Under the pieces are notes generated by a model. That model saw only the letters and a program-made list of their open reading frames with translations. It did not search any database and had not been told where the DNA came from. From Narcine bancroftii (taxonomy: Eukaryota), in contig NC_091477.1 in NCBI RefSeq assembly GCF_036971445.1, forward strand, positions 96,968,001 through 97,032,000: 64,000 nt of DNA, in the 5' to 3' direction. The translations under genes were made by a program, and so were the position numbers. Of this stretch, positions 10,014 to 56,343 are shown piece by piece; the stretch's first letter is position 1, and every line of letters starts with the position of its first letter.

Positions 10014-10143
10014 NNNNNNNNNNNNNNNNNNNNNNNNNNNNNNNNNNNNNNNNNNNNNNNNNNNNNNNNNNNNNNNNNNNNNNNNNNNNNNNNNNNNNNN
10101 NNNNNNNNNNNNNNNNNNNNNNNNNNNNNNNNNNNNNNNNNNN
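10014..10143. other. Assembly gap (130 N)
   Basis: Run of N. Confidence 1.
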
Positions 10144-14164: not shown

Positions 14165-16212
14165 TACAGTATGTGGATAAGCATACCAGAGGAGTGGCCA
14201 CACTAGATTTAGTACTGAGTAATGAACCTGGTCAATACCAGACCAGGTTCATGATAAGGTTTACGACAGACCTCTCAGCGGGGGAGAATTTCAATGACAG
14301 TGTTCACAACTTCCTGACCTTTAGCATAGCTATGGACAAGGATAGGAGTTGACAAAATGGTAAAGTGTTTAATTAGAGAAGGAATAATTATGATGGGATT
14401 AGGCAGAAACTGGGGCAAGTAAATTGGGAACAGCTGCTCTCAAGGAAAAGCATAGAAGTAATGATGTTTAAAATTCAGAATCCCAATATTAAAAGAATGC
14501 ACTTGCTTTCTTTCATTGAAATTGTTAGTTATAGATAACGGATCCTTCGAAAACTGGTAATATTTGGGTTTGATTATCTGTGGGCACTCTGACAAATATG
14601 CATCTGTTCCGCAACTCAGCTGTAATGCTGTATGAAATCTTGAACCCCAACTACTGCATTCTAACGAGGCTTTACTGTATTAGGTCTACTGCAAATTTGC
14701 AATAGACCACTTGCTCAGGGTTCTGGATAGGTTTATCCCATTGAGACAGGGATAAGATGACAGGATAAGATAAATGTGGTTGACAGGTGGGTGGAGTCCT
14801 AAATGAATACTTCAGTGTTCACCAGAGAGAGGGACCATGGACAATGTGAGGTCATTAAAAAACCAGGTTATGTGCTGAAACAAGTAAGAAGACGTGCAGG
14901 ATCTTCTTAAAAATGGGACCAGAAGAGATATACCCCAGGTTACTAAAGGAAGTGAAGGAAGAGATTGCTGGGGCATTGGCATTTGTGTCCTCCCTGGCCA
15001 GAACAAGAGTATTGGAGAATGGAAAATGTAGTCCCCTTGTTTAAAAAAGGTAATAGAAAGAAACCTGGGAATTATAGACCAGTGTTTTAAATCAGCAATT
15101 GTTAGGAACAGGATTTATGAGCATTGAGAGAAGCGTAGTCTGCTTAGATATAATCAGTATGGCTTTGTGAAGGGGTAGGTCATGCCTCAAGTCTTAATTG
15201 AGGTATTTGAGGAAGTAACAAAAGAAATTGATGAAGGTAGGGCAGTAGATGTGCTGTATGTGGATTTTAGTAAGGTATTTGACAAGGTCCGGCATGGTTG
15301 GTAGATTCATTCAGAAAGTCATGAGGCATTGGGTCCACAGAGTCAAGGCTTTGTGGATTCAGAACTGGCTTGCCAGCAGAAAGCAGAGAGTAGTAGTAGA
15401 TGGAAAGTATTCTGCCTAGAGGTCAATGACAAGTGAGTTATGCAAGGATCTATTCTGGAAACCCTGCTTTGTGATGTTTATAAACAACCTGGATGAAGAA
15501 TTAAATGGATGGAACAGTATGTTTTCAGATACATGAAGGTTGGAGGTGTTATGGATAGTGCAGAAGGTTGCCACAGGTCACAATTGGATATAGACAGGAT
15601 GTAGAGCTAGGCACAAATGTGGCAGATTAAGTTCAATAGGATAAATGTTAAATGATGCATTTTCAAAAGTCGAACTTGAAGGTGAAGTGTATGGTTAATG
15701 GCAGAACTTTTAATAGTGTGGAAGAATAGAGGGACCTTGGGGTCCAAATCCATAGATTTCACAAGGTGATTGCACAGCTTGAAAGGGTAGTTAAGAAGGC
15801 TTGTGGTATGCTGGCCTTCATTAGTAGGGGGGATTGAGTTGAAGAGTTGAGATATAATGTATGCACCTCTAAGACTCTGATTAGACCATACTTGGAATAT
15901 TATGTTAAGTTCGGGTTGCCTCATTACAGGAAGGATGTAGAAACTTTAGAGAGGGTGCAGAGGAGATTTATCAGGATGTTACGTGGATTGGAAAATGTGT
16001 CTTATGAAACAAGGTTAGCAGAGTTTTCTCTTTGGTCTATATGATTATATAGAGGTCTATAAGATTATGAGAGGTACAGTAAGGATGGACAGCTATCACC
16101 CTCTTCCCAGGGTAACACTAGCAAATACCAGAGAACATCTGTACGAGGTGAGGGAAAGGAAAGTTTAAGGGAGACACCAGGGTAATTTGTTTTACACAGA
16201 GAGTAGTGGGTG
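14165..16212 (+). mobile_element. Older CR1 LINE (EN end + RT), internally deleted and lacking its 3' end
   Basis: LDLVLSNEPG, PGNYRPV, YVDFSKVFDKV, LIRPYLEY..ERVQRRF motifs with many disruptions. Confidence 0.9.
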
Positions 16213-17133
16213 CAGATGATACTAAAATAGGGGGAATTGTGGATGATGAAGAGGGTTTTCAAAGATTGCAGAGGGATTTAAACTGCTTAGAGGAGTGGAC
16301 AGAAAGATAGTAGATTGAGTTTAATGCTGATAAGTGAGGTGCTTCATTTTGGAAAGAATAATCAAAGCAAGATATATGTGGTAAATGGGAGTGCACTGAA
16401 GAATGTAGTGGAGCAGAAAGATCTAGGAATAACAGTGCATTGTTCCCTGAAGGTAGCAGCGCATGTGGATAGGGTGGTGAAGAAGGCCTTTAGTATGCTT
16501 GCCTATATAAATCAGTGCATAGAATAAAGGAGTTGGGAAGTAATGATGAAACTGTACAAGGCATTGGTGAGGTCAAATTTAGAGTACTGTATACAGTTCT
16601 GGTCACCGATTTATAGGAAGGATATTAACAAGATAGAGAGAGTGCAGAGGAGATTTACAAAAATGTTGCCTGGGCTTCAGCATCTGGAATACAAGGAAAG
16701 ATTGAGCAAATTAGGTCTTTATTCCTTGGAACGTAGAAGGCTGAGAGGGGATTTGATAGAAGTGTTTAAGATAATGAGAGGGATAGATAGAGTTGATGTG
16801 GGAAGGCTTTTCCCATTGAGAGTAGGAGAGATGGATACAAGAGGTCATGGGTTGAGAGTTGACGGGCAAAGGTTTAGGAGTAACATTGGGGGAACTTCTT
16901 TACTCAGAGGGTGGTTACTGTGTGGAATGGGCTTCTGGGAAAGGTGGTGGAAGCAAGGTCAATATTGTAATTTAAGAAAGAGTTGGATAAGTATATGGAT
17001 GGGAGGGGGATGGAGGGATATGGGCAGAGTGCTGGGAAGTGGGATTCGAGGAGGGTACTTGGATCAGTGTGGACTAGAAGGGCCAAATTGGCCTGTTTCT
17101 GTGCAGTAATTGCTATATGGTTATTGTTATATG
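16213..17133 (+). mobile_element. Younger CR1 LINE 3' fragment
   Basis: Starts at the (F)ADDTKIGG motif. ORF 16543-17109: LYKALVRSNLEYCIQFWSP..ERVQRRFTKM..LERRRLRGDLIEVFKI..TRGH; 3' UTR present. Confidence 0.92.
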
Positions 17134-20100
17134 TCAATATTTCATCTCATTATGCCATCTATTAATATCAATCATATTTGTATCTTTCCATGTACTAGCA
17201 ATACATTTTTTCACTACGGATAAAGCTAAATATACAAAAACAAGCTGAAGCTTGTTTAATCCCAAGCCTTTCAGAGCTTGCAAACTACCGAATAAAAATA
17301 CTGTTGGATCTAAAACTATTTTAATCTTATACAGATATTCTAAAAACGATTGAATTTTCTTCCAAAAAGATTGTATATGTATACATGACCAAACAGCATG
17401 AAAAAAAGTTCCAACCATGTCACCACATCTAAAACATAGATCTGATTCATTAAAACCATATTTTTTAAATTTTTCAGGTGTCAAATATATTTGATGTAAA
17501 AAATTGCAATTAATCATTGCATAATGTGCATTTATCAATCTAGTTACACTATCATAACAGATATCTAACCAATCCTCTTCAGAAAAAATAAAACCAATAT
17601 CCGCTTCCCATTTAATTTTAGATCTATCCCAACCCTTTTTATCCATACCATCCTGTAATTATTTGATACATAAATGAAATATAACCCTTCTCTGGTATCT
17701 TCATAAGAAAAGTCTCAAATTTAGTCATTTTAGGTAAAATCATCTCTCTACCAAACATACATTTTACCAAAGATCGAATTTGATAATAAAGAAATAAAGA
17801 ATTCTTATCAATACCAAAATCTTCCCTCATCTGATTAAAAGATAAAAACTTACCCTCTTTAAAACAATCTCCCAAATTTTTCACACCTTTAAATCTCCAA
17901 TGCAATAAACTTTGATTATGTATTGAAAAAGAAATAAGTTGATTATTATACAACGGAGTCAAAGCCAATAATTTACCCCTAGAACCTATCATTTTATTTT
18001 TCTTTATCTATAACTTCATTAAATGTTTTAGTATAGGCACATTATATTGTTGTAACAAATTCATATTCCACCTAAACAAAAATTGATGTATTTCAAATTC
18101 AGAAATATTTGCCATCTCAATTTTAGCCCAACTTGGAGGCCGCACCAAATCCTTCAATGAACTAATAAATTTAAGTTGGGCTGCCTCATAATAATTTTGA
18201 AAATGTGGTAAACGTAATCCCCCTAACTCATATTTCCGTTAATTTATTCAAAGCTACTCTCAAAAATTTATCCCTCCATAAAAACTCCCTAACCATTTTA
18301 TTTAAATCTCGAAAAAAAATTTTATCAAGTAAATACAGAATAGATTGAAACAATTATTGTATACACAGAAAGATATTCATCTTAATTGTATTTATCATTC
18401 CCATTAAATTAATAGGTAAATCTTTCCATTTAATCAAATCAGTTTTAATTTTTTTCATTAACGGAGCACAATTTAATTTATATAAAGATTGATAATTAAC
18501 ATTCAAAATTATACCCAGATATTTAATTCGATCAGTCCACTTCAAATTAATAATATTCTTATAAACTGAATAATCTCCTTCACTTACCAGTAATATTTCA
18601 CTTTTTTCCCAATTAACTTTATATCCAGAAAGACATCCATATTGTATTAAATATTCCTTCAAATCCAAAAGTGACTGAGCTGGGTTTATTAAATACGTCA
18701 ATACATCATCAGCAAATAAATTAATTTTATACTCCTCATCTACAACTTTCATACCTTGTATCTGTGTATTTTGTCTTATCAACTGTGCAAAAGTTCAATC
18801 ACTAACACAAACAAAGCTGGTGATAAAGGACAACCTTGACGAGTTGATTGAGTTAAATTAAAAGATTCTGAAATCAAACCATTTGTCAATACTCTAGCTA
18901 CCGGTTTACTATATAGAGCTGTAATCCAACCAATAAAAGAAGGACCAAACTTAAATTTCTCCAAAACTTTAAACAAAAAATTCCATTCAACTCTATCAAA
19001 TACTTTTTCTGCATCTAAGGATATCACCATCGGATGATCTAAAGATTGTCAAAATCTATTAATCAAACTAATCATACGCAAAATGTTATCTGAAGCATAT
19101 CTATTCTTTATAAAACCTGTTTGATCAATATGAATCAACTTTGGTAAAATTTTTGCCAATCTATTTGCAAATATTTTAGCTATTATTTTATAATCTACAT
19201 TTAACAACGAAATTGGTCTATATGAAGATACTTTCAAAGGATCTCTATCTTTTTTAGGAATTACTGTAATTAAAGCACTAGAACAAGACTCAGGTAATTC
19301 ATAATGTTCTCCAACTTGATGTAATACAACCCCAAACACTGTAGATAAATCAGCATAAAAAATTTTATAAAATTCAACCGAAAATCCATCATCACCAGGC
19401 AATTTACCGTTCAGCATTTCCAGCATAGCTATTTTAATTTCCGAATCAGTAAATGGTTCTTCTAACTCCTGTATATCTCCATCCTCTAATATCAGTAAAT
19501 TCAACTGTGATAAATAAAGATCAATCAATCCAGTTTCCTGTTTTCCTTCAGATGTATATAACTTTTTATAAAATTCATTATTAATCTCACAAGGTTTCTA
19601 AGTAATAAGAGAATTCTGTCTAACAGCATAAATAGTCCTTGATATTTGTTCTTTCTTTAATTGCCATGCCAATACCTTATGTGGTTTCTCTCCCCATTCA
19701 TAATGCCATTGTTTAGTCCTATTAATCACATATTCAAATTGATAAGATTGCAAGGTATTATATTTCAATTTCAGCCTAGATAATTCTATTTTCTGATCTT
19801 CTGTAGCATCTTTCTGAAATTCTTTTTCTAACTCATCGATCTGTTTCTCTAATTCAAGACTCTGATTTAATCGATTCTTTTTTATTTTAGAAGTATAACT
19901 AATTATTTGTCCTCTCAAATAGGCTTTCATAGCATCCCATAATACAAACTTACTTTGAACAGATTTAGAATTTTCTTTAAAAAAAATTAATTTGTTTTTT
20001 CAAAAAATCAATAAATTCCATATTTTTTAACAACATTGTATTAAATCTCCAACAATAAGCTATTTGAATTTTCTCAGAAGTTTCATATGTAAAATATAAC

Positions 20101-23100
20101 AGAAAATGATCTGAAATCACCCTACTTTTATATTCCGCTTGTTGTATTTTCCCTTGTAAGTGTGCCGATACCAAAAAGAAGTCAATCCTTGAAAACGATT
20201 CATGTCTAGATGAATAAAAGGAAAAATCTTTCTCTGTCGGATTAAGATGTCTCCAAATATCTACTAAATTAAGATCTTTCATCAACGCTTGGACCTGGAT
20301 TGCCATCTTGATTTTTTTAACTTTCTTCGGAGATTTATCTAATAAAGGTTGCAAAACACAATTAAAATCACCACCAACTAAAATATTATTATTAGCTTGA
20401 CCCAAACATAAAAATGCATCTGAAATAAATACTTCATCATCTACATTTGGAGCATAAATATTAAGTAAAGTCCAAAATTCATTAAAAATCTTACAATTCA
20501 ATTTAAGAATACATCCTGCCTTTTCTTCCATTGATTGTAATTCAAAAGATAAATTTTTATGTATCAAAATTGCTACACCTTTAGCTCTAGAATTAAATGA
20601 AGAAGAATATACATGCCCAACTCAATCCCTTTTTAATTTCACACTTTCCTTCACATTCAAATGTGTTTCTTGTAAAAGGGCAATATCAATTTTCATTTTC
20701 TTAATAAACGCCAAGACTCGCTTATGTTTAATCGGACTATTTAATCCTCGAATATTAAAAGTAGCAAACTTCAACTTTGACATATCTACTATTATTACTA
20801 AAGACCAATAATATCTTTATATAAAAACTCAAATCAACGTATATAGGCCCTCCAATAAAAAAAATCACAACTTAAAAACTAAGAAAAAAGTAAAAAATAA
20901 ATAAAAATGAAAAAAATTCCCCCCCCCCAAAAAAACTACCAAAAGGTAGTAATCCCCTAAACAAAAATTGGGTGTGGATCACTCATCAGTGGCTGATGAC
21001 TAATAAAGGACTTAGTGCAAATCTCTCCCTCCCCAGCCAAATAATCAGTAACATCAAAATATCATAATAACAAGAGAAAAAATAAAATAAGAAAATTCTT
21101 CTTTTCATCCAAAAGACTCCAATCTCGAAGATTCCATTTCGGAAGAAGGTAGACTCTTTCCATTCCCATTTTTCCCATTTCTGCCATTTCTTCCATTTCC
21201 AGAGCTACCAAATTTTCCTTTAGGAGATAATGGTGGACTATGTCTTTGTCCTCTTATATCTGGCAATGAGTCAGCAAAAATCTTTGCTTCACAATCAGTT
21301 TCAAAAAACCAAAATTGATAGTCTCCGTAAAACACCTTCAACACTGCAGGGTAACGAAAAGTAAACTTATAACCTTTATGCCACAAAACTTCTTTAACTG
21401 GATTGAATCGACATCGACGTTGAATGACATTTTGACTCAGATCAGGATAGAAATAGACTCTGCTATTCTGAATCAATAATGGGGTTTGTCATTGTCTCGC
21501 ATTTTGTACTGCAAGATGAAGTATTGCTTCTCTATCCAAATAACACAGTCATCGAATTATTACCAGTCTCGGGGGTTGACCAGCTGAGGGCAATTTTCTT
21601 AAAGCTCTCTTGGCTCTTTCCAGTGCCAATCCCCCATGGAAAAATTCTTGCCCTAATATTTGTGGAATCCAGTCTTTAAAAAAACGAAGAGGATTTTGTC
21701 CTTCCATACCTTCTGGCAAACCAACAATTTTCACATTATTCCTTCTGCTTCGATTTTCCAAATAATCTATTTTTCTTTCTAGCTCCTTCTCACGATCTCC
21801 TAATTCTATGACTGATTTTTACACCTTCAACACTTTTTCTATGTTGGAAATCACTTGTTGTTTACAGTCCAAAAAAGCAGTCTGAATTTTTAAAAAAACT
21901 TCATAAGATGCATCCACATGTGTCTTAACCATATTTAATTCTGAACTTATACCAGCATTATTTTGAACCATTTCATTCATTTGAGATGTCAACAAATCCA
22001 TTCCAGGTTTTATTTCTTTCTTTGGCTTGGCTTCGCGGACGAAGATTTATGGAGGGGGTAAAAAGTCCACGTCAGCTGCAGGCTCGTTTGTGGCTGACAA
22101 GTCCGATGCGGGACAGGCAGACACGATTGCAGCGGTTGCAAGGGAAAATTGGTTGGTTGGGGTTGGGTGTTGGGTTTTTCCTCCTTTGCCTTTTGTCAGT
22201 GAGGTGGGCTCTGCGGTCTTCTTCAAAGGAGGTTGCTGCCCGCCAAATTGTGAGGTGCCAAGATGCACGGTTTGAGGCGTTATCAGCCCACTGGCGGTGG
22301 TCAATGTGGCAGGCACCAAGAGATTTCTTTAGGCAGTCCTTGTACCTTTTCTTTGGTGCACCTCTGTCACGGTGGCCAGTGGAGAGCTCGCCATATAATA
22401 CGATCTTGGGAAGGCGATGGTCCTCCATTCTGGAGACGTGACCCATCCAGCGCAGCTGGATCTTCAGCAGCGTGGACTCGATGCTGTCGACCTCTGCCAT
22501 CTCGAGTACTTCGACGTTAGGGGTGTAAGCGCTCCAATGGATGTTGAGGATGGAGCGGAGACAACGCTGGTGGAAGCATTCTAGGTGGTGCCGGTAGAGG
22601 ACCCATGATTCGGAGCCGAACAGGAGTGTGGGTATGACAACGGCTCTGTATACGCTTATCTTTGTGAGGTTTTTCAGTTGGTTGTTTTTCCAGACTCTTT
22701 TGTGTAGTCTTCCAAAGGCGCTATTTGCCTTGGCGAGTCTGTTGCTATCTCATTGTAGATCCTTGCATCTGCTGAAATGGTGCAGCCGACATAGGTAAAC
22801 TGGTTGACCGTTTTGAGTTTTGTGTGCCCGATGGAGATGTGGGGTGGCTGGTAGTCATGGTGGGGAGCTGGCTGATGGAGGACCTCAGTTTTCTTCAGGC
22901 TGACTTCTAGGCCAAACATTTTGGCAGTTTCCGCAAAGCAGGACGTCAAGCGCTGAAGAGCTGGCTCTGAATGGGCAACTAAAGCGGCATCATCTGCAAA
23001 GAGTAGTTCACGGACAAGTTTCTCTTGTGTCTTGGTGTGAGCTTGCAGGCGCCTCAGATTAAAGGCTGTGTACGGCCCCTCACCCCAAGTCCAAAGCCCG

Positions 23101-24725
23101 CTGCGCAGCTCAGACGGCAAAGTCCTCCTCAGCGACAAGATCTCCATCCTCAACCGATGGTCAGAACACTTCCAATCTCTTTTCAGTGCCAACCGCTCAG
23201 TCCAAGATTCCGCCCTGCTCCAGCTCCCTCAACAGCCCCTAAGGCTAGAGCTGGATGAGGTTCCCACCCTGGATGAGACATATAAGGCAATCGAACAACT
23301 GAAAAGTGGCAAAGCAGCAGGTATGGATGGAATCCCCCCAGAAGTCTGGAAGGCTGGCGGCAAAACTCTGCATGCCAAACTGCATGAGTTTTTCAAGCCT
23401 TGTTGGGACCAAGGTAAACTGCCTCAGGATCTTCGTGATGCCACCATCATCACCCTGTACAAAAACAAAGGCGAGAAATCAGACTGCTCAAACTACAGGG
23501 GAATCACGTTGCTCTCCATTGCAGGCAAAATCTTCGCTAGGATTCTACTAAATAGAATAATACCTAGTGTCGCCGAGAATATTCTCCCAGAATCACAGTG
23601 TGGCTTTCGCGCAAACAGAGGAACCACTGACATGGTCTTTGCCCTCAGACAGCTCCAAGAAAAGTGCAGAGAACAAAACAAAGGACTCTACATCACCTTT
23701 GTTGACCTCACCAAAGCCTTCGACACCGTGAGCAGGAAAGGGCTTTGGCAAATACTAGAGCGCATCGGATGTCCCCCAAAGTTCCTCAACATGATTATCC
23801 AACTGCACGAAAACCAACAAGGTCGGGTCAGATACAGCAATGAGCTCTCTGAACCCTTCTCCATTAACAATGGCGTGAAGCAAGACTGTGTTCTCGCACC
23901 AACCCTCTTTTCAATCTTCTTCAGCATGATGCTGAACCAAGCCATGAAAGACCCCAACAATGAAGACGCTGTTTACATCCGGTACCGCACGGATGGCAGT
24001 CTCCAGGTTTTATAACAGCTTGAATAACTGCATTCAATTGCATACACTGTGAATCAGTAAATCTCAGCTCTGCTCTCTCTGACATGGTAGCAGAACAAGG
24101 TCACTGCAGCTCCTGCTACAATTCAACAGAAGGCATTTTAAAAGTTTTACTGCGGGTCTGGACTCCCAGCGACGGTACCCCGTCTTCCTCTGGGGGTCGC
24201 TGTTGGTCTCCCCCTGCATCTTGTTGTTTTCTCATCAATTCACGAAGAAAAACAATTTCTTCAGATTGAAATGCTACCTGATGCATTTCCAACAATAGAG
24301 TCGTCTTCCTGCATGCACCCTCCATTGAAATTGAAAGGCTTTCCAAATCGGGGTCCACTTCTTGGGAACACGCACCTTCTTCTGGAGAACGGGTAATTCC
24401 AGCGCCATCCTTCATTTGATGAGTAATAGGTTTTTATTTTCAGCCCCCACAGGCGATCTTTGGGATTTAGGTAATGAAGAAATTGAGCCTGGGGCTGTTT
24501 CAAGTCGTCTAGGCCCAAGATCTTCAACACTTCGAAAATGAATCTTCTTTTGAACTTGAGGTTTAGTCTTTTTACCATTAGTGGCTATAATAATTCCTTA
24601 ATACTTTAAACTAAAATTTAGAAAGTTTAAACTTGAAAACAAAGGGTTAAAAAACGGGTATTTAAAAGTCTGGCCAGAGAGGTCGAGATTGCACGTCTAG
24701 ACTCTATGCCATCTTGCCATGCCCA
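17134..24725 (-). mobile_element. 5'-complete L1-clade LINE (ORF1 ~24588-21105, ORF2 20783-~17134), pseudogenised, interrupted by an RTE, 3' end lost
   Basis: ORF1 has ENRSRRNNVKIVGLPEG, LERAKRA, YFYPDLS, FRYPAVLKV. ORF2 starts MSKLKFATFNIRGLNSPIK..LQETH (APE) and has NIYAPN, GGDFN, SRIDFF, SDH, YRPISLLNVDYKI, SLDAEKVFDRVEW, RQGCPLSP, LFADD and the CFRC..H..W.C zinc knuckle. Several frameshifts and stops. Confidence 0.95.
22014..24001 (-). mobile_element. Young RTE-clade LINE, 5'-truncated and 5'-inverted, with 12-bp TSD
   Basis: TSD TCCAGGTTTTAT at 22002-22013 and 24002-24013; (AAAG)n tail at ~22014-22023. The 3' part is on the - strand (LLFADD, QLRWMGHVSRM, CNRC..H..C). The 5' part (~23060-24003) is on the + strand (GMDGIPPE, NYRGITLLS, ESQCGFR, FVDLTKAFDTV, GVKQDC). 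Confidence 0.93.
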
Positions 24726-24984
24726 CATTCAATGATTTCTGATGGGCAGCCCAAGTCATTTACATGTTAGACACTGGGCTCCTGAAATGGATATTCCATT
24801 CTGAGCCCTGTCATGGCAAGAGATTATCAAGTGAATAGAGGAAATACTTCAAGGAAGAAGATCTACATCCTTACTGACTCATGAAAATCACTCACCTGTG
24901 ACTTCTAAAGGAAGGAACATATGCGAGCACTGATCACTTGGTGTCCCTTCACCCATGAAGAAGGCACACCAATGTCTGTAGTTT

Positions 24985-27829: not shown

Positions 27830-29750
27830 AGCCATTCTAGTTTGTGCTGAACTAGGAATCTGTCTAAACCCACTGACCTGCACCTGGACCATCTCCCTCT
27901 ATAACCATCCCATCCATATACTGTACCTGTCCAAATTTTTCTTAATTATAAAAATTGAGTCTGCATTTACTGATTCAGGGGCAGGTCATTCCACATTCCT
28001 ACCACTCTTTGTGTGAAGGAGTTCCCCCAATGTTCCTTTTAAACTTTTCCCCTTTTACCTTTAACCCATGTCCTCTTTTTTAAAAAAATCTCTCCTAATC
28101 TCAGTAAAAAAAAAGCCTGCTTGCATTTACCCTAATCATAATTTTGTAAATCTTTTATCAAATCTCCCTCATTCTTCTACACTCCAGAGAATGAAGTCCA
28201 AACATGTAACTCGATTTCTTCAAGTCCCGTCAATATCCTTTTAAATCTCCTTTGCACTCTACCAATCTTATTGCTTTCCTTCCTGTAATTAGATGACCAA
28301 AAATACACACAATACTCCAAATTTGACCTCACCAATGTCTTACACAACTTCATCATAACATCCCAACTCCTATTTCAATATTTTGATTTATGAAGACTGA
28401 AGTGTCAAAAGCTACCATATATTTCGGCATTTAAGTCAAGTTGTGAAACCCAAAAAAACTCTCCAAAAAAATGTGCGTCGATATACGCCAGATATATTAT
28501 ACGCCAGATATAATTTTGAGACCTTAAATTCAGCTCAAAATCCAATCCACGCTGATCCAGCAAACAAGTTGACCGTTGAAAAACCAATTCGGCTTGTAAG
28601 TCGACCCTTGAAAAAAACCAAAAAAAAAACCTGACTGCAATAAAATTTTCATTGCAATTTTTATTGAAAACAACAACACATTTAGAACTCTTCAAAATCA
28701 CTCTCGCCATCATCGTCTGAAGCAAAGTTTGCAGCAAGCACATCCATTCTCTCACTGTTTAAACGGTCATCGTATGGGTCCCTGTCTGTATCTAATGAGG
28801 CATTTTCAACTTCGTCATCAGTGTCCCATAATAAATCATCTTCCGTGCCATCAACTGCACAAAAGATACTGCACTTTTTAAAGTGCATGAAGTTACACAG
28901 CATATCAAGTGATGCAGCATGCATTTCCCTACCTTTTGTAAACAATTTTTCTGTACTCAACATCTATGTATTCCATTTCTCGTGCACATGGTCTTTGAAT
29001 GACCTCTTCAAGCAGACATCAAGAGGTTGCAATATAGACGTCAAACCATCTGGGATAACTGCCATGTATCTATTATGTAGTGCTAATCTACTTTTAGTGT
29101 TCTCAGTTAAGTGGCTATGAAACATATCCCAGTCCAGCAAACTCGGTTCTTTGCATAAACCATCTGGCCTCCTGTCCACATATTGTCTATTCATAGTTTT
29201 ACACCATTTTCATCCATCCATCCGAACAAAAATACCTACAGCGAATTTCATTTTCAGTTTAATTTTGCGTCTAATTCAATTTACAACCTCACCATGAATA
29301 ACAAGAAACGGAACCTTCTTGACTAATTTCTCATGGGACCTTGTCAAAGGCCTTACTAAGGTCCATGTTGACAACATCTACTAACCTTTCCTTCATCAAC
29401 TTTCCTGGTAACCTCCTTGAAAAACTCTACAAGATTAGTTAAACATGATCTACCATGCACTAATATATTCAAAATACTTGTATATCTGATTTCTTAGATC
29501 ACTTTACAATAACCATTGATGTCAGACTCAATGGTTTTGGAGCCTTTTTTAAACAACGGAACAACAGGAGCTATCCTCCAATCTGCTGGCTCCTCACCAA
29601 TGGCTAAGGACAAATTAAATACATCTGCCAGGGCCCATGCTCATACACGAGCTCCCTCAAAGTTTGAGGGAATACCTAGTCAGGTCCAGATGATTTATTC
29701 ACTTTCATATGCCTTAAGACAACAAGTATCTCCTTTTCTTTAATCTGTAT
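27830..29750 (-). mobile_element. CR1 LINE remnant split by a pogo element
   Basis: CR1 3' region at ~27830-28412 and RT region at ~29310-29750 (AFDKVPH-type motifs). Confidence 0.75.
28415..29275 (-). mobile_element. pogo/Tigger (POGK-like DDE) DNA transposon remnant
   Basis: SLLDWDMFHSHLT..AVIPDGLTSILQPLDVCLKRSFKD..W, then FKKCSI..AVDGTEDDLLW and an acidic tail; TA|CCATATATTTCGGC terminus. Confidence 0.85.

Positions 29751-31423: not shown

Positions 31424-56343
<24,920 letters not shown>

What the first reader, a model, noticed from the sequence alone, without database searches (positions are those of the whole stretch)
22002..24013. RTE-clade LINE with a textbook twin-priming 5' inversion, nested in L1 ORF1
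Seen: one 12-bp TSD (TCCAGGTTTTAT) brackets the whole 2-kb insert. The 3' half with its (AAAG)n tail is on the - strand, while the upstream half (~23060-24003) is on the + strand. The halves are contiguous in the RTE protein (...YRTDGSL | FNLRRLQAH...), so almost nothing is lost at the inversion point. The inverted arm ends with 2-3 nt shared with the TSD (C)TC, and the internal junction overlaps by a few nt (TAAAG). Established: this geometry is the signature of twin priming during target-primed reverse transcription, best known from mammalian L1. Inference: an RTE element in a fish lineage used the same mechanism, which to my knowledge is rarely documented outside L1. A single TSD around both arms argues against a later genomic inversion or two separate insertions.
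Basis: partly seen in the sequence, partly recalled or inferred. Interest (0 to 1): 0.75.

Follow-up and report, generated by a model that had tools for sequence, protein, structure and literature searches.

The report
Front-flipped RTE retrotransposon in a ray
A dead 2-kb copy of an RTE-type jumping gene sits in this likely ray genome with its front half backwards inside one 12-base target duplication; this is likely the "twin priming" copying accident known from mammalian L1, and two relatives from marine metagenomes show the same flip, so it may be a regular habit of this other class of element.

Summary
Observation confirmed, with small corrections. One exact 12-bp duplication (22002-22013, 24002-24013) brackets a 5'-truncated RTE-type LINE whose arms point in opposite directions: 23060-24003 (+, aa 404-718 of a 1,059-aa homolog) and 22014-23060 (-, aa 719 to the tail). 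Intact family contigs from three public runs join 24002 to 23064 across strands, so 0-3 nt are lost at the flip. Both arms are about 99% identical to the family. Removing the insert restores the ORF1 frame of an older L1; the host is likely a ray. Microhomology is weak: 2 nt outside, 1 nt exact (4 of 5) inside. New support: 3 of 26 related metagenome/genome loci with a visible truncated 5' junction are also flipped, two inside their own 9- and 10-bp duplications. Twin priming by the RTE's own enzyme is the best reading (0.8). This copy's own junctions were not verified by spanning reads, and no genome-wide count was possible. Ten literature searches found no RTE report, but key non-open papers were unreadable. 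Known mechanism, apparently new clade.

The parts
22002..22013 (.). TSD copy next to the element's 3' tail
   Evidence: Exact 12-mer; empty-site contig in X5 joins 22001 to 24002 with 12 shared bases
22014..22023 (-). 3' tail, 2.5 units of AAAG, no poly(A)
   Evidence: Sequence
22024..22071 (-). Rest of the short 3' UTR (58 nt with the tail), ending GAAGCCAAGCC as in relatives L011 and L013
   Evidence: Stop codon at 22074-22072; 3' ends compared
22014..23060 (-). Upright arm: second half of the RT and the C-terminal region, aa 719/720-1056; can be read to 23064 with one mismatch at 23061
   Evidence: tblastn; Pfam RVT_1 positions 148-205; loose ends
22582..22585 (-). TAGG left by a 9-nt in-frame deletion between two TAGG copies, relative to the family
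   Evidence: Loose ends on both sides in X1 and X5, one side in X6 and X9
22744..22745 (-). 1-nt deletion relative to the family, frameshift in the upright arm
   Evidence: table 4; frame change between 22746 and 22743
23060..23064 (.). Inner (head-to-head) junction; 1 nt exact overlap, 4 of 5 with one mismatch
   Evidence: loose end before 23060 in X6 and X9, loose end behind 23064 in X1 and X6
23060..24003 (+). Inverted arm: aa 404-718, open frame, first half of the RT; no tail of its own
   Evidence: (RVT_1 positions 3-152)
24002..24003 (.). Outer junction, 2 nt shared by the inverted arm and the TSD (inferred second priming site)
24002..24013 (.). TSD copy at the element's 5' side; on the element's strand it begins with A after GTT
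21153..22001 (-). Host L1 ORF1, C-terminal part, with stops
   Evidence: 69% to aa 828-1101 of P0241
24014..24424 (-). Host L1 ORF1, N-terminal part
   Evidence: 57% to aa 696-833 of P0241, collinear across the empty site; frame restored
17125..20774 (-). Host L1 ORF2 (endonuclease, RT, zinc knuckle), broken

Best explanation
This is one dead, 5'-truncated insertion of a young RTE-type LINE whose front part lies backwards inside a single 12-bp duplication, most likely made by twin priming during insertion by the element's own enzyme. Shown: the layout, the TSD, the adjacent breakpoints, the equal age of the arms, the restored empty site. Inferred steps: (1) the enzyme nicked the + strand after ...GGTTTTAT, and that T-rich end paired loosely with the (AAAG)n RNA tail and primed cDNA 1. 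(2) The other strand was cut 10-12 nt away before cDNA 1 was finished; its overhang, ending in GA, paired by 2 nt with the same RNA about 1,050 nt from the 3' end and primed cDNA 2. (3) cDNA 1 stopped at the second priming site; cDNA 2 stopped after 944 nt. (4) The two cDNA 3' ends paired over 5 bases with one G-T mismatch and were joined; fill-in made the TSD. The front 1.2 kb of the ORF and the 5' UTR were never copied. The copy has no likely function.
For: Single exact TSD, its length at the reported RTE peak of 10-12 bp (PMC4245944). Breakpoints within 0-3 nt in intact copies; 46% (132 of 287) of human L1 5' inversions are within 20 bp (PMC12016303). Arms do not overlap and the inverted arm has no tail. 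Same divergence from the family: 7/855 vs 7/653 in X9 (P = 0.79), 5/927 vs 4/463 in X6 (P = 0.49). Summed depth rises towards the 3' end in de-inverted order: Spearman 0.99, 0.98, 0.95 in X1, X5, X9, against 0.79 in genomic order. Recurrence: L013 (close family, 9-bp TSD, 1- and 2-nt overlaps, 466 nt lost between arms) and L044 (distant family, 10-bp TSD, arms adjacent at protein level, paralogous empty site in L085); L071 has the same inner junction with an 8-nt overlap of the arms. These fall in different branches of the clade. 4 of the 15 joints shown have the head-to-head form expected of other inverted copies of this family. No poly(A), and the TSDs of all three start with A, as reported for animal RTEs (PMC6007223).
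Against: No read or contig shown spans this copy's own junctions. Microhomology is weak: P = 0.17 for this copy, 0.08 with L013, 0.04 with the inner junction of L071. In X6 the depth test favours genomic order (0.97 vs 0.82) because one collapsed contig covers the inverted arm. The upright arm has two indels and the inverted arm none. L013 loses 466 nt between arms and L071 carries a second inverted piece with no testable TSD. The four head-to-head joints have only 23-27 letters on the short side and no TSD can be seen. The RTE 'T-stretch at -10' signature is only partly met, TTATT here and no TTT in any of three sites. No biochemical test of second-strand priming by an RTE enzyme was found.
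Confidence: 0.8

Rival explanations
1. Repair capture: priming from the tail gave the upright arm, and host end-joining patched the other end with a loose cDNA piece (from the broken RNA or a second RNA) in reverse orientation.
For: Junction overlaps are as short as in end-joining; L013 has a 466-nt gap and L071 an extra piece.
Against: A loose piece should come from anywhere in a 3.3-kb element; here and in L044 it abuts the upright arm within a few bases. The TSD is clean, with no added bases at any junction.
Confidence: 0.07
2. A normal 5'-truncated copy was inverted later, in place, between its 5' end and an internal break.
For: This gives the same layout and a single TSD (logic, not a call).
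Against: One break must hit the TSD edge to the base, in three independent loci. No inverted repeat pairs the two breakpoints among the 25 longest of 61 inverted pairs listed.
Confidence: 0.05
3. Twin priming, but by L1 ORF2p acting in trans on the RTE RNA.
For: L1 is abundant in these runs and the site GTT|ATAAAA is one base from the L1 consensus TT|AAAA (consensus from PMC6007223). L1 inverts mRNAs in trans, 3 of 23.
Against: No poly(A); the copy ends in the family's own tail. TSDs are 12, 9 and 10 bp, below the L1 peak of 13-15. The sites of L013 and L044 are not L1-like.
Confidence: 0.04
4. Assembly or library artefact.
For: The family is extremely repetitive (98,989 contigs laid in X1) and no spanning contig was shown.
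Against: An artefact would need two chimeric joins, one on the TSD edge and both at adjacent element positions. Fold-back chimeras duplicate sequence; these arms do not overlap.
Confidence: 0.03
5. Snap-back synthesis (cDNA primes on itself, as described for R2 in PMC11371274) or two separate insertions at one site.
For: Snap-back also yields antisense element sequence at the 5' junction.
Against: Snap-back copies sequence already in the cDNA; the inverted arm is upstream sequence absent from the upright arm (self-BLAST). A second insertion would have its own tail and TSD; there is none.
Confidence: 0.01

Closest known systems
5'-inverted (twin-primed) mammalian L1 insertions (model of Ostertag and Kazazian 2001, seen only as cited in PMC2912911, PMC4245944, PMC12016303)
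   Same: One TSD round both arms, head-to-head inner junction, adjacent breakpoints, short overlaps, 5' truncation; 18-22% of human L1 insertions.
   Different: The element is not L1 (separate clade, 100/100), has a microsatellite tail, not poly(A), a 9-12 bp TSD, and relatives show no L1-size ORF1. The host is likely a ray.
The single Nimb-2_DR 5' inversion in chicken DT40 cells (PMC4245944)
   Same: Non-L1 LINE with a TSD peak near 12 bp that can invert.
   Different: That was one cultured-cell insert of another clade; these are genomic copies, found in several branches of an RTE-type clade.
RTE-clade LINEs (RTE-1, SR2, SR3, Bov-B as described in PMC1291365, PMC6007223, PMC13295347)
   Same: Single ~1,060-aa endonuclease-RT ORF in full-length relatives, very short 3' UTR with A-rich tetramer repeats, 10-12 bp TSD starting with A.
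   Different: No named Repbase family could be matched. The nearest named proteins are from Diadema (83%), Branchiostoma, Oryzias javanicus and Penaeus (74-78%). The 2026 Bov-B insertion paper has no occurrence of twin, inversion or inverted.
R2 snap-back 5' junctions (PMC11371274)
   Same: Antisense element sequence at the 5' junction.
   Different: Snap-back duplicates copied sequence; here the arms are complementary parts of one RNA with no duplication.

Membership tests
RTE-clade LINE | Single ORF of about 1,060 aa with APE endonuclease and RT | tested here: met
   In full-length homologs: P0002, 1,059 aa, Exo_endo_phos + RVT_1. The window copy itself lacks the endonuclease by truncation.
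RTE-clade LINE | No L1-type ORF1 upstream | tested here: inconclusive
   In 12 near-full-length loci the longest upstream ATG ORF is 45-131 aa, 75 aa in the closest (L011); true 5' ends were not mapped.
RTE-clade LINE | Unusually short 3' UTR ending in AT-rich tri- to pentamer repeats | tested here: met
   58 nt ending in 2.5 AAAG units; feature from PMC1291365.
RTE-clade LINE | TSD of 7-15 bp, peak 10-12, first base A in animals | tested here: met
   12 bp starting with A; feature.
RTE-clade LINE | T stretch about 10 nt upstream of the TSD | tested here: inconclusive
   TTATT at -10 to -14; no TTT in the window, L013 or L044.
RTE-clade LINE | RT phylogeny inside the RTE clade with named references | not testable with these tools
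   The tree (37 rows) separates the insert's group of 28 from 9 L1-type rows at 100/100, but holds no curated RTE reference; the L1 labels are mine. Motif searches in two papers' supplements and in the library found nothing.
Twin-primed 5' inversion | One TSD around both arms, tail at the upright arm only | tested here: met
Twin-primed 5' inversion | Head-to-head inner junction; outer end of the inverted arm near the start of the upright arm in the consensus | tested here: met
   0-3 nt apart
Twin-primed 5' inversion | Microhomology at the outer and inner junctions above chance | tested here: inconclusive
   2 nt and 1 nt (4 of 5); P = 0.17 alone, 0.04 over five junctions, 2e-4 if the 8-nt outer junction of L071 is counted
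Twin-primed 5' inversion | Both arms from one template (same subfamily and age) | tested here: met
   About 99% to the family in both arms, Fisher P = 0.79 and 0.49; low power
Twin-primed 5' inversion | Second-strand end primes reverse transcription on the RNA | not testable with these tools
   Needs a biochemical or cell assay
L1-clade LINE (host element) | ORF1 upstream of an endonuclease-RT-zinc knuckle ORF2 of about 1,270 aa | tested here: met
   ORF2 pieces collinear with 1,264-1,278-aa homologs, zf-RVT E = 0.005. ORF1 pieces hit no Pfam family; their homolog P0241 has only a weak Tnp_22_dsRBD hit, E = 0.16. The RRNN motif as an ORF1 mark is recalled.

The most novel reading that the evidence does not exclude
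Twin priming is a regular pathway of RTE-clade elements across marine animals, flipping about one in ten truncated insertions. It would then need neither ORF1p nor poly(A) nor mammalian host factors, only a 9-12 nt overhang cut early, and the view that 5' inversion is an L1-in-mammals trait would be wrong.
Probability: 0.55. Interest if true: 0.62.

Novelty: new variant of a known kind. Interest (0 to 1): 0.45.

Why it matters
The one comparative test I could read saw 5' inversions only with human L1 in human cells, plus one Nimb-2 insert, and proposed that a 10-20 nt overhang is needed (PMC4245944). RTE elements leave 10-12 bp duplications and appear to lack ORF1, so inversions in RTE copies test that proposal directly and separate overhang length from ORF1p, poly(A) and host. 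This young, very abundant family would give thousands of natural junctions that time second-strand cleavage, a step still poorly understood. The single locus is a dead repeat inside a dead repeat and has no likely effect on the host.

Tried and rejected
No own genome is held, so the genome-wide count could not be made. The window has no second copy of the family. Laying contigs (4 of 11 listed runs) gave family junctions, but the piece table was cut, so this copy's junctions stay unverified. The viral collection gave one weak hit, L001, 32%. The nine hits in bacterial genomes are likely eukaryotic contamination, and none is inverted. Of 5 loci with hits on both strands, L030 and L086 were rejected as separate, distant elements. 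The first classification of loci was spoiled by a query with a duplicated RT (P0047) and was redone without it. Motif searches for a family name found nothing. PDB holds only L1 and R2 relatives, at E 1e-21 or weaker. Horizontal transfer was considered because runs labelled as other organisms (X6, X9) hold the RTE at about 99% with little of the L1 or the flank; low-level carry-over explains this as well, so it is not claimed. Ten paper searches listed no report of RTE 5' inversions; several were too loose to be informative. Two papers likely to bear on prior art were not held, and Ichiyanagi and Okada 2008 was seen only as cited by others.
Full report
What is there. The 12-mer TCCAGGTTTTAT occurs twice in the window, at 22002-22013 and 24002-24013. 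None of 19,686 random position pairs shared 12 bases within 5 nt of both points, and the composition-based chance is about 1e-5. Between the copies lie two arms of one retroelement ORF. Against the 1,059-aa homolog P0002, aa 404-718 lie on + at 23059-24003 and aa 719-1056 on - from 23063 to 22066, with a frameshift near 22744 (18 homologs tried). Pfam RVT_1 is split the same way: positions 3-152 in one arm, 148-205 in the other. The stop codon is at 22074-22072, followed by a 58-nt 3' UTR that ends in 2.5 AAAG units. The first 403 codons, endonuclease included, are missing.

The target. With the insert and one TSD removed, the reading frame on - runs through and is collinear with an L1 ORF1-like stretch of a Narcine protein: aa 696-833 at 24424-24011 and aa 828-1101 at 21995-21153. 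A broken endonuclease-RT-zinc knuckle ORF2 follows at 20774-17125. Its RT piece is 90% identical to a Narcine bancroftii protein and at most 53% to anything else listed, so the host is likely a ray. A contig in run X5 joins 22001 to 24002 with 12 shared bases, and contigs in X1 and X5 skip the insert at nearby positions; these are empty paralogs or an empty allele, which cannot be told apart.

Junctions at base level. No genome is held, so contigs of 4 of the 11 listed public runs were laid on 21200-24900. Intact copies join 24002 to 23064 on opposite strands with one shared base (6 contigs in X1, 2 in X5, 1 in X9; loose ends only in X6). The inverted arm starts exactly at 23060 and ends at 24003, sharing TC with the TSD. 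The upright arm matches exactly up to 23060, or to 23064 with one mismatch. So 3 nt are lost on the strict reading and none on the loose one. Against a random-join null these overlaps are unremarkable (P = 0.17). Both arms differ from the family by about 0.5-1% (7/855 vs 7/653 in X9; 5/927 vs 4/463 in X6; Fisher P = 0.79, 0.49; counted on the listed pieces only). The upright arm also has a 9-nt and a 1-nt deletion. Summed depth follows the de-inverted order in X1, X5 and X9 (Spearman 0.99, 0.98, 0.95 vs 0.79) but not in X6 (0.82 vs 0.97), where one contig covers the arm. No listed piece spans this copy's own junctions; 32 pieces were shown and 98,615 were not, so misassembly is unlikely but not excluded.

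Does it recur? Four of the 15 joints shown (225 not shown) run from the upright-arm region into the inverted-arm region on one strand: 22441-23749, 22787-23873, 22878-23949 in X1 and 22462-23685 in X5. That is the inner junction of an inverted copy, with implied spans of 240-920 nt; the short sides are 23-27 letters and no TSD is visible, so this is a lead. A profile of 30 homologs fetched 90 loci: 1 viral, 9 from bacterial assemblies, and the best 80 of 567 from a partial metagenome scan. Five of 89 with a hit had both strands; two were separate elements. L013, a close family with the same 3' end, has an inverted arm at 1345-1566 and an upright arm from 1565 to the tail inside a 9-bp TSD, with 1- and 2-nt overlaps and 466 nt missing between arms. 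L044, a distant family (44% aa), has arms that are adjacent at protein level inside a 10-bp TSD, and L085 holds the empty site of the repeat it entered. Chance TSDs of 9 or more and 10 or more bases arose in 27 and 7 of 19,686 random pairs in the window. L071 has the same inner junction, arms overlapping by 8 nt, a further 112-nt inverted piece and a contig end before the tail. That makes 3 of 26 loci with a visible truncated 5' junction (one of the 26 is the weak viral hit), and 2 of 6 with both ends visible; TSDs were not sought in the other four. The sample is small and ranked by score. The inverted copies fall in different branches of a group set apart from L1 at 100/100 (37 rows, no curated RTE reference).

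How it most likely arose. Shown: layout, TSD, adjacency, equal age, recurrence. Inferred: the element's enzyme nicked after GGTTTTAT and primed on the AAAG tail; the second cut, 10-12 nt away, came early; its overhang paired by 2 nt inside the same RNA and primed a second cDNA; the first cDNA stopped there; the two cDNA ends paired over 5 bases with one mismatch and were joined. This is the twin-priming model as set out in PMC2912911 (passages). Rivals: capture of a loose cDNA by repair (0.07), later in-place inversion (0.05), L1 in trans (0.04), artefact (0.03), snap-back or two insertions (0.01). Later inversion gives the same picture and is ruled unlikely only by the break on the TSD edge in three loci. 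L1 in trans is opposed by the lack of poly(A), TSDs of 12, 9 and 10 bp, and non-L1 sites in L013 and L044.

Comparison with what is known. PMC4245944 (passages and the whole Introduction) saw inversions only with L1 in human cells and one Nimb-2 insert, gives RTE TSD peaks of 10-12 bp, and proposes that a long overhang is needed. PMC12016303 (passages) gives 18-22% for human L1, 0.02% for Alu, and 46% of inversions within 20 bp. RTE features come from PMC1291365 and PMC6007223 (passages). PMC13295347 on Bov-B insertion sites has no occurrence of twin, inversion or inverted. PMC4476161 (passages) reports only template-switch chimeras for RTE and L2. PMC11371274 (passages) describes R2 snap-back. 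PMC5389967, PMC7245038 and PMC8232201 (passages) added nothing; supplements were searched only for PMC7846101 and PMC7245038, for family motifs. Ten searches of the open library listed no RTE inversion report. Ostertag and Kazazian 2001 and Ichiyanagi and Okada 2008 were seen only as citations, and two look-ups failed, so prior mention in non-open papers remains possible. Earlier notes of this scan describe two other RTE-type cases, one with about one in ten long copies flipped; these are unchecked leads, though my 3 of 26 is of the same size.

Verdict. Real feature, known mechanism, apparently undocumented clade. It works like a twin-primed L1; it is not an L1, and it is an RTE by structure, not by a labelled tree. 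New variant of a known kind; interest 0.45, rising to about 0.6 if a genome-wide count shows a regular, ORF1p-free pathway.

Noticed in passing
window:21200-24900, runs X6 and X9: Runs labelled as two other organisms hold the RTE at about 99% identity (a 1,469-nt contig with 5 differences in 927 nt) but almost none of the host L1 or the unique flank. Recent horizontal transfer or low-level carry-over; nearest named proteins are marine invertebrates and teleosts at 74-83%.
   Followed up: partly
window:22017-22021, run X1 (table 5c): 9 of the 12 rows shown join a truncated 5' end (22047-22659) to the tail of another copy across 3-38 spacer bases, which suggests closely spaced or tandem short copies.
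   Followed up: no
window:22312-22350, 22405-22694, 22610-22694, 23924-23958: Internal-deletion joints in family copies; two share the end 22694.
   Followed up: no
window:24710-24725: Likely 5' end of the host L1, with a CAAGATGGC motif on - (its role as an L1 5' mark is recalled); an X1 contig identical over 24695-24900 runs into the unique flank. No TSD was found for the L1.
   Followed up: partly
L071:1170-1281: A second inverted RTE piece joined with an 8-nt overlap; either insertion into an older copy of the same family or a template switch.
   Followed up: partly
L085:5922 and L044:5945: L085 is truncated within about 15 nt of the inner junction of L044; chance or a pause site.
   Followed up: no
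L044:8288-8427: The repeat that L044 entered contains a tRNA-Thr-like sequence, likely a SINE or tRNA array.
   Followed up: partly
P0241, P0121: Narcine gene models (ZBTB11, RABEP1 isoforms) include long stretches of this L1 family's ORF1 and ORF2; exonisation or annotation error.
   Followed up: no
L002-L010: RTE-like elements in five bacterial assemblies or MAGs, likely eukaryotic contamination.
   Followed up: no
window:40913-42225 and 31826-32388: Tandem arrays: 16-bp unit, 82 copies, 99% matches; 17-bp purine-rich unit, 33 copies.
   Followed up: no
window:55665-55917: 250-bp imperfect palindrome, 78%, possibly a small DNA-transposon derivative.
   Followed up: no
window:3158-4212, 15305-17109, 27863-28391, 39147-40178: Several related repeat copies at 66-72% identity, CR1-like by recalled motif at 16528-17109; one abuts the 3' end of the L1 ORF2. 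Assembly gap of 130 N at 10014-10143.
   Followed up: no
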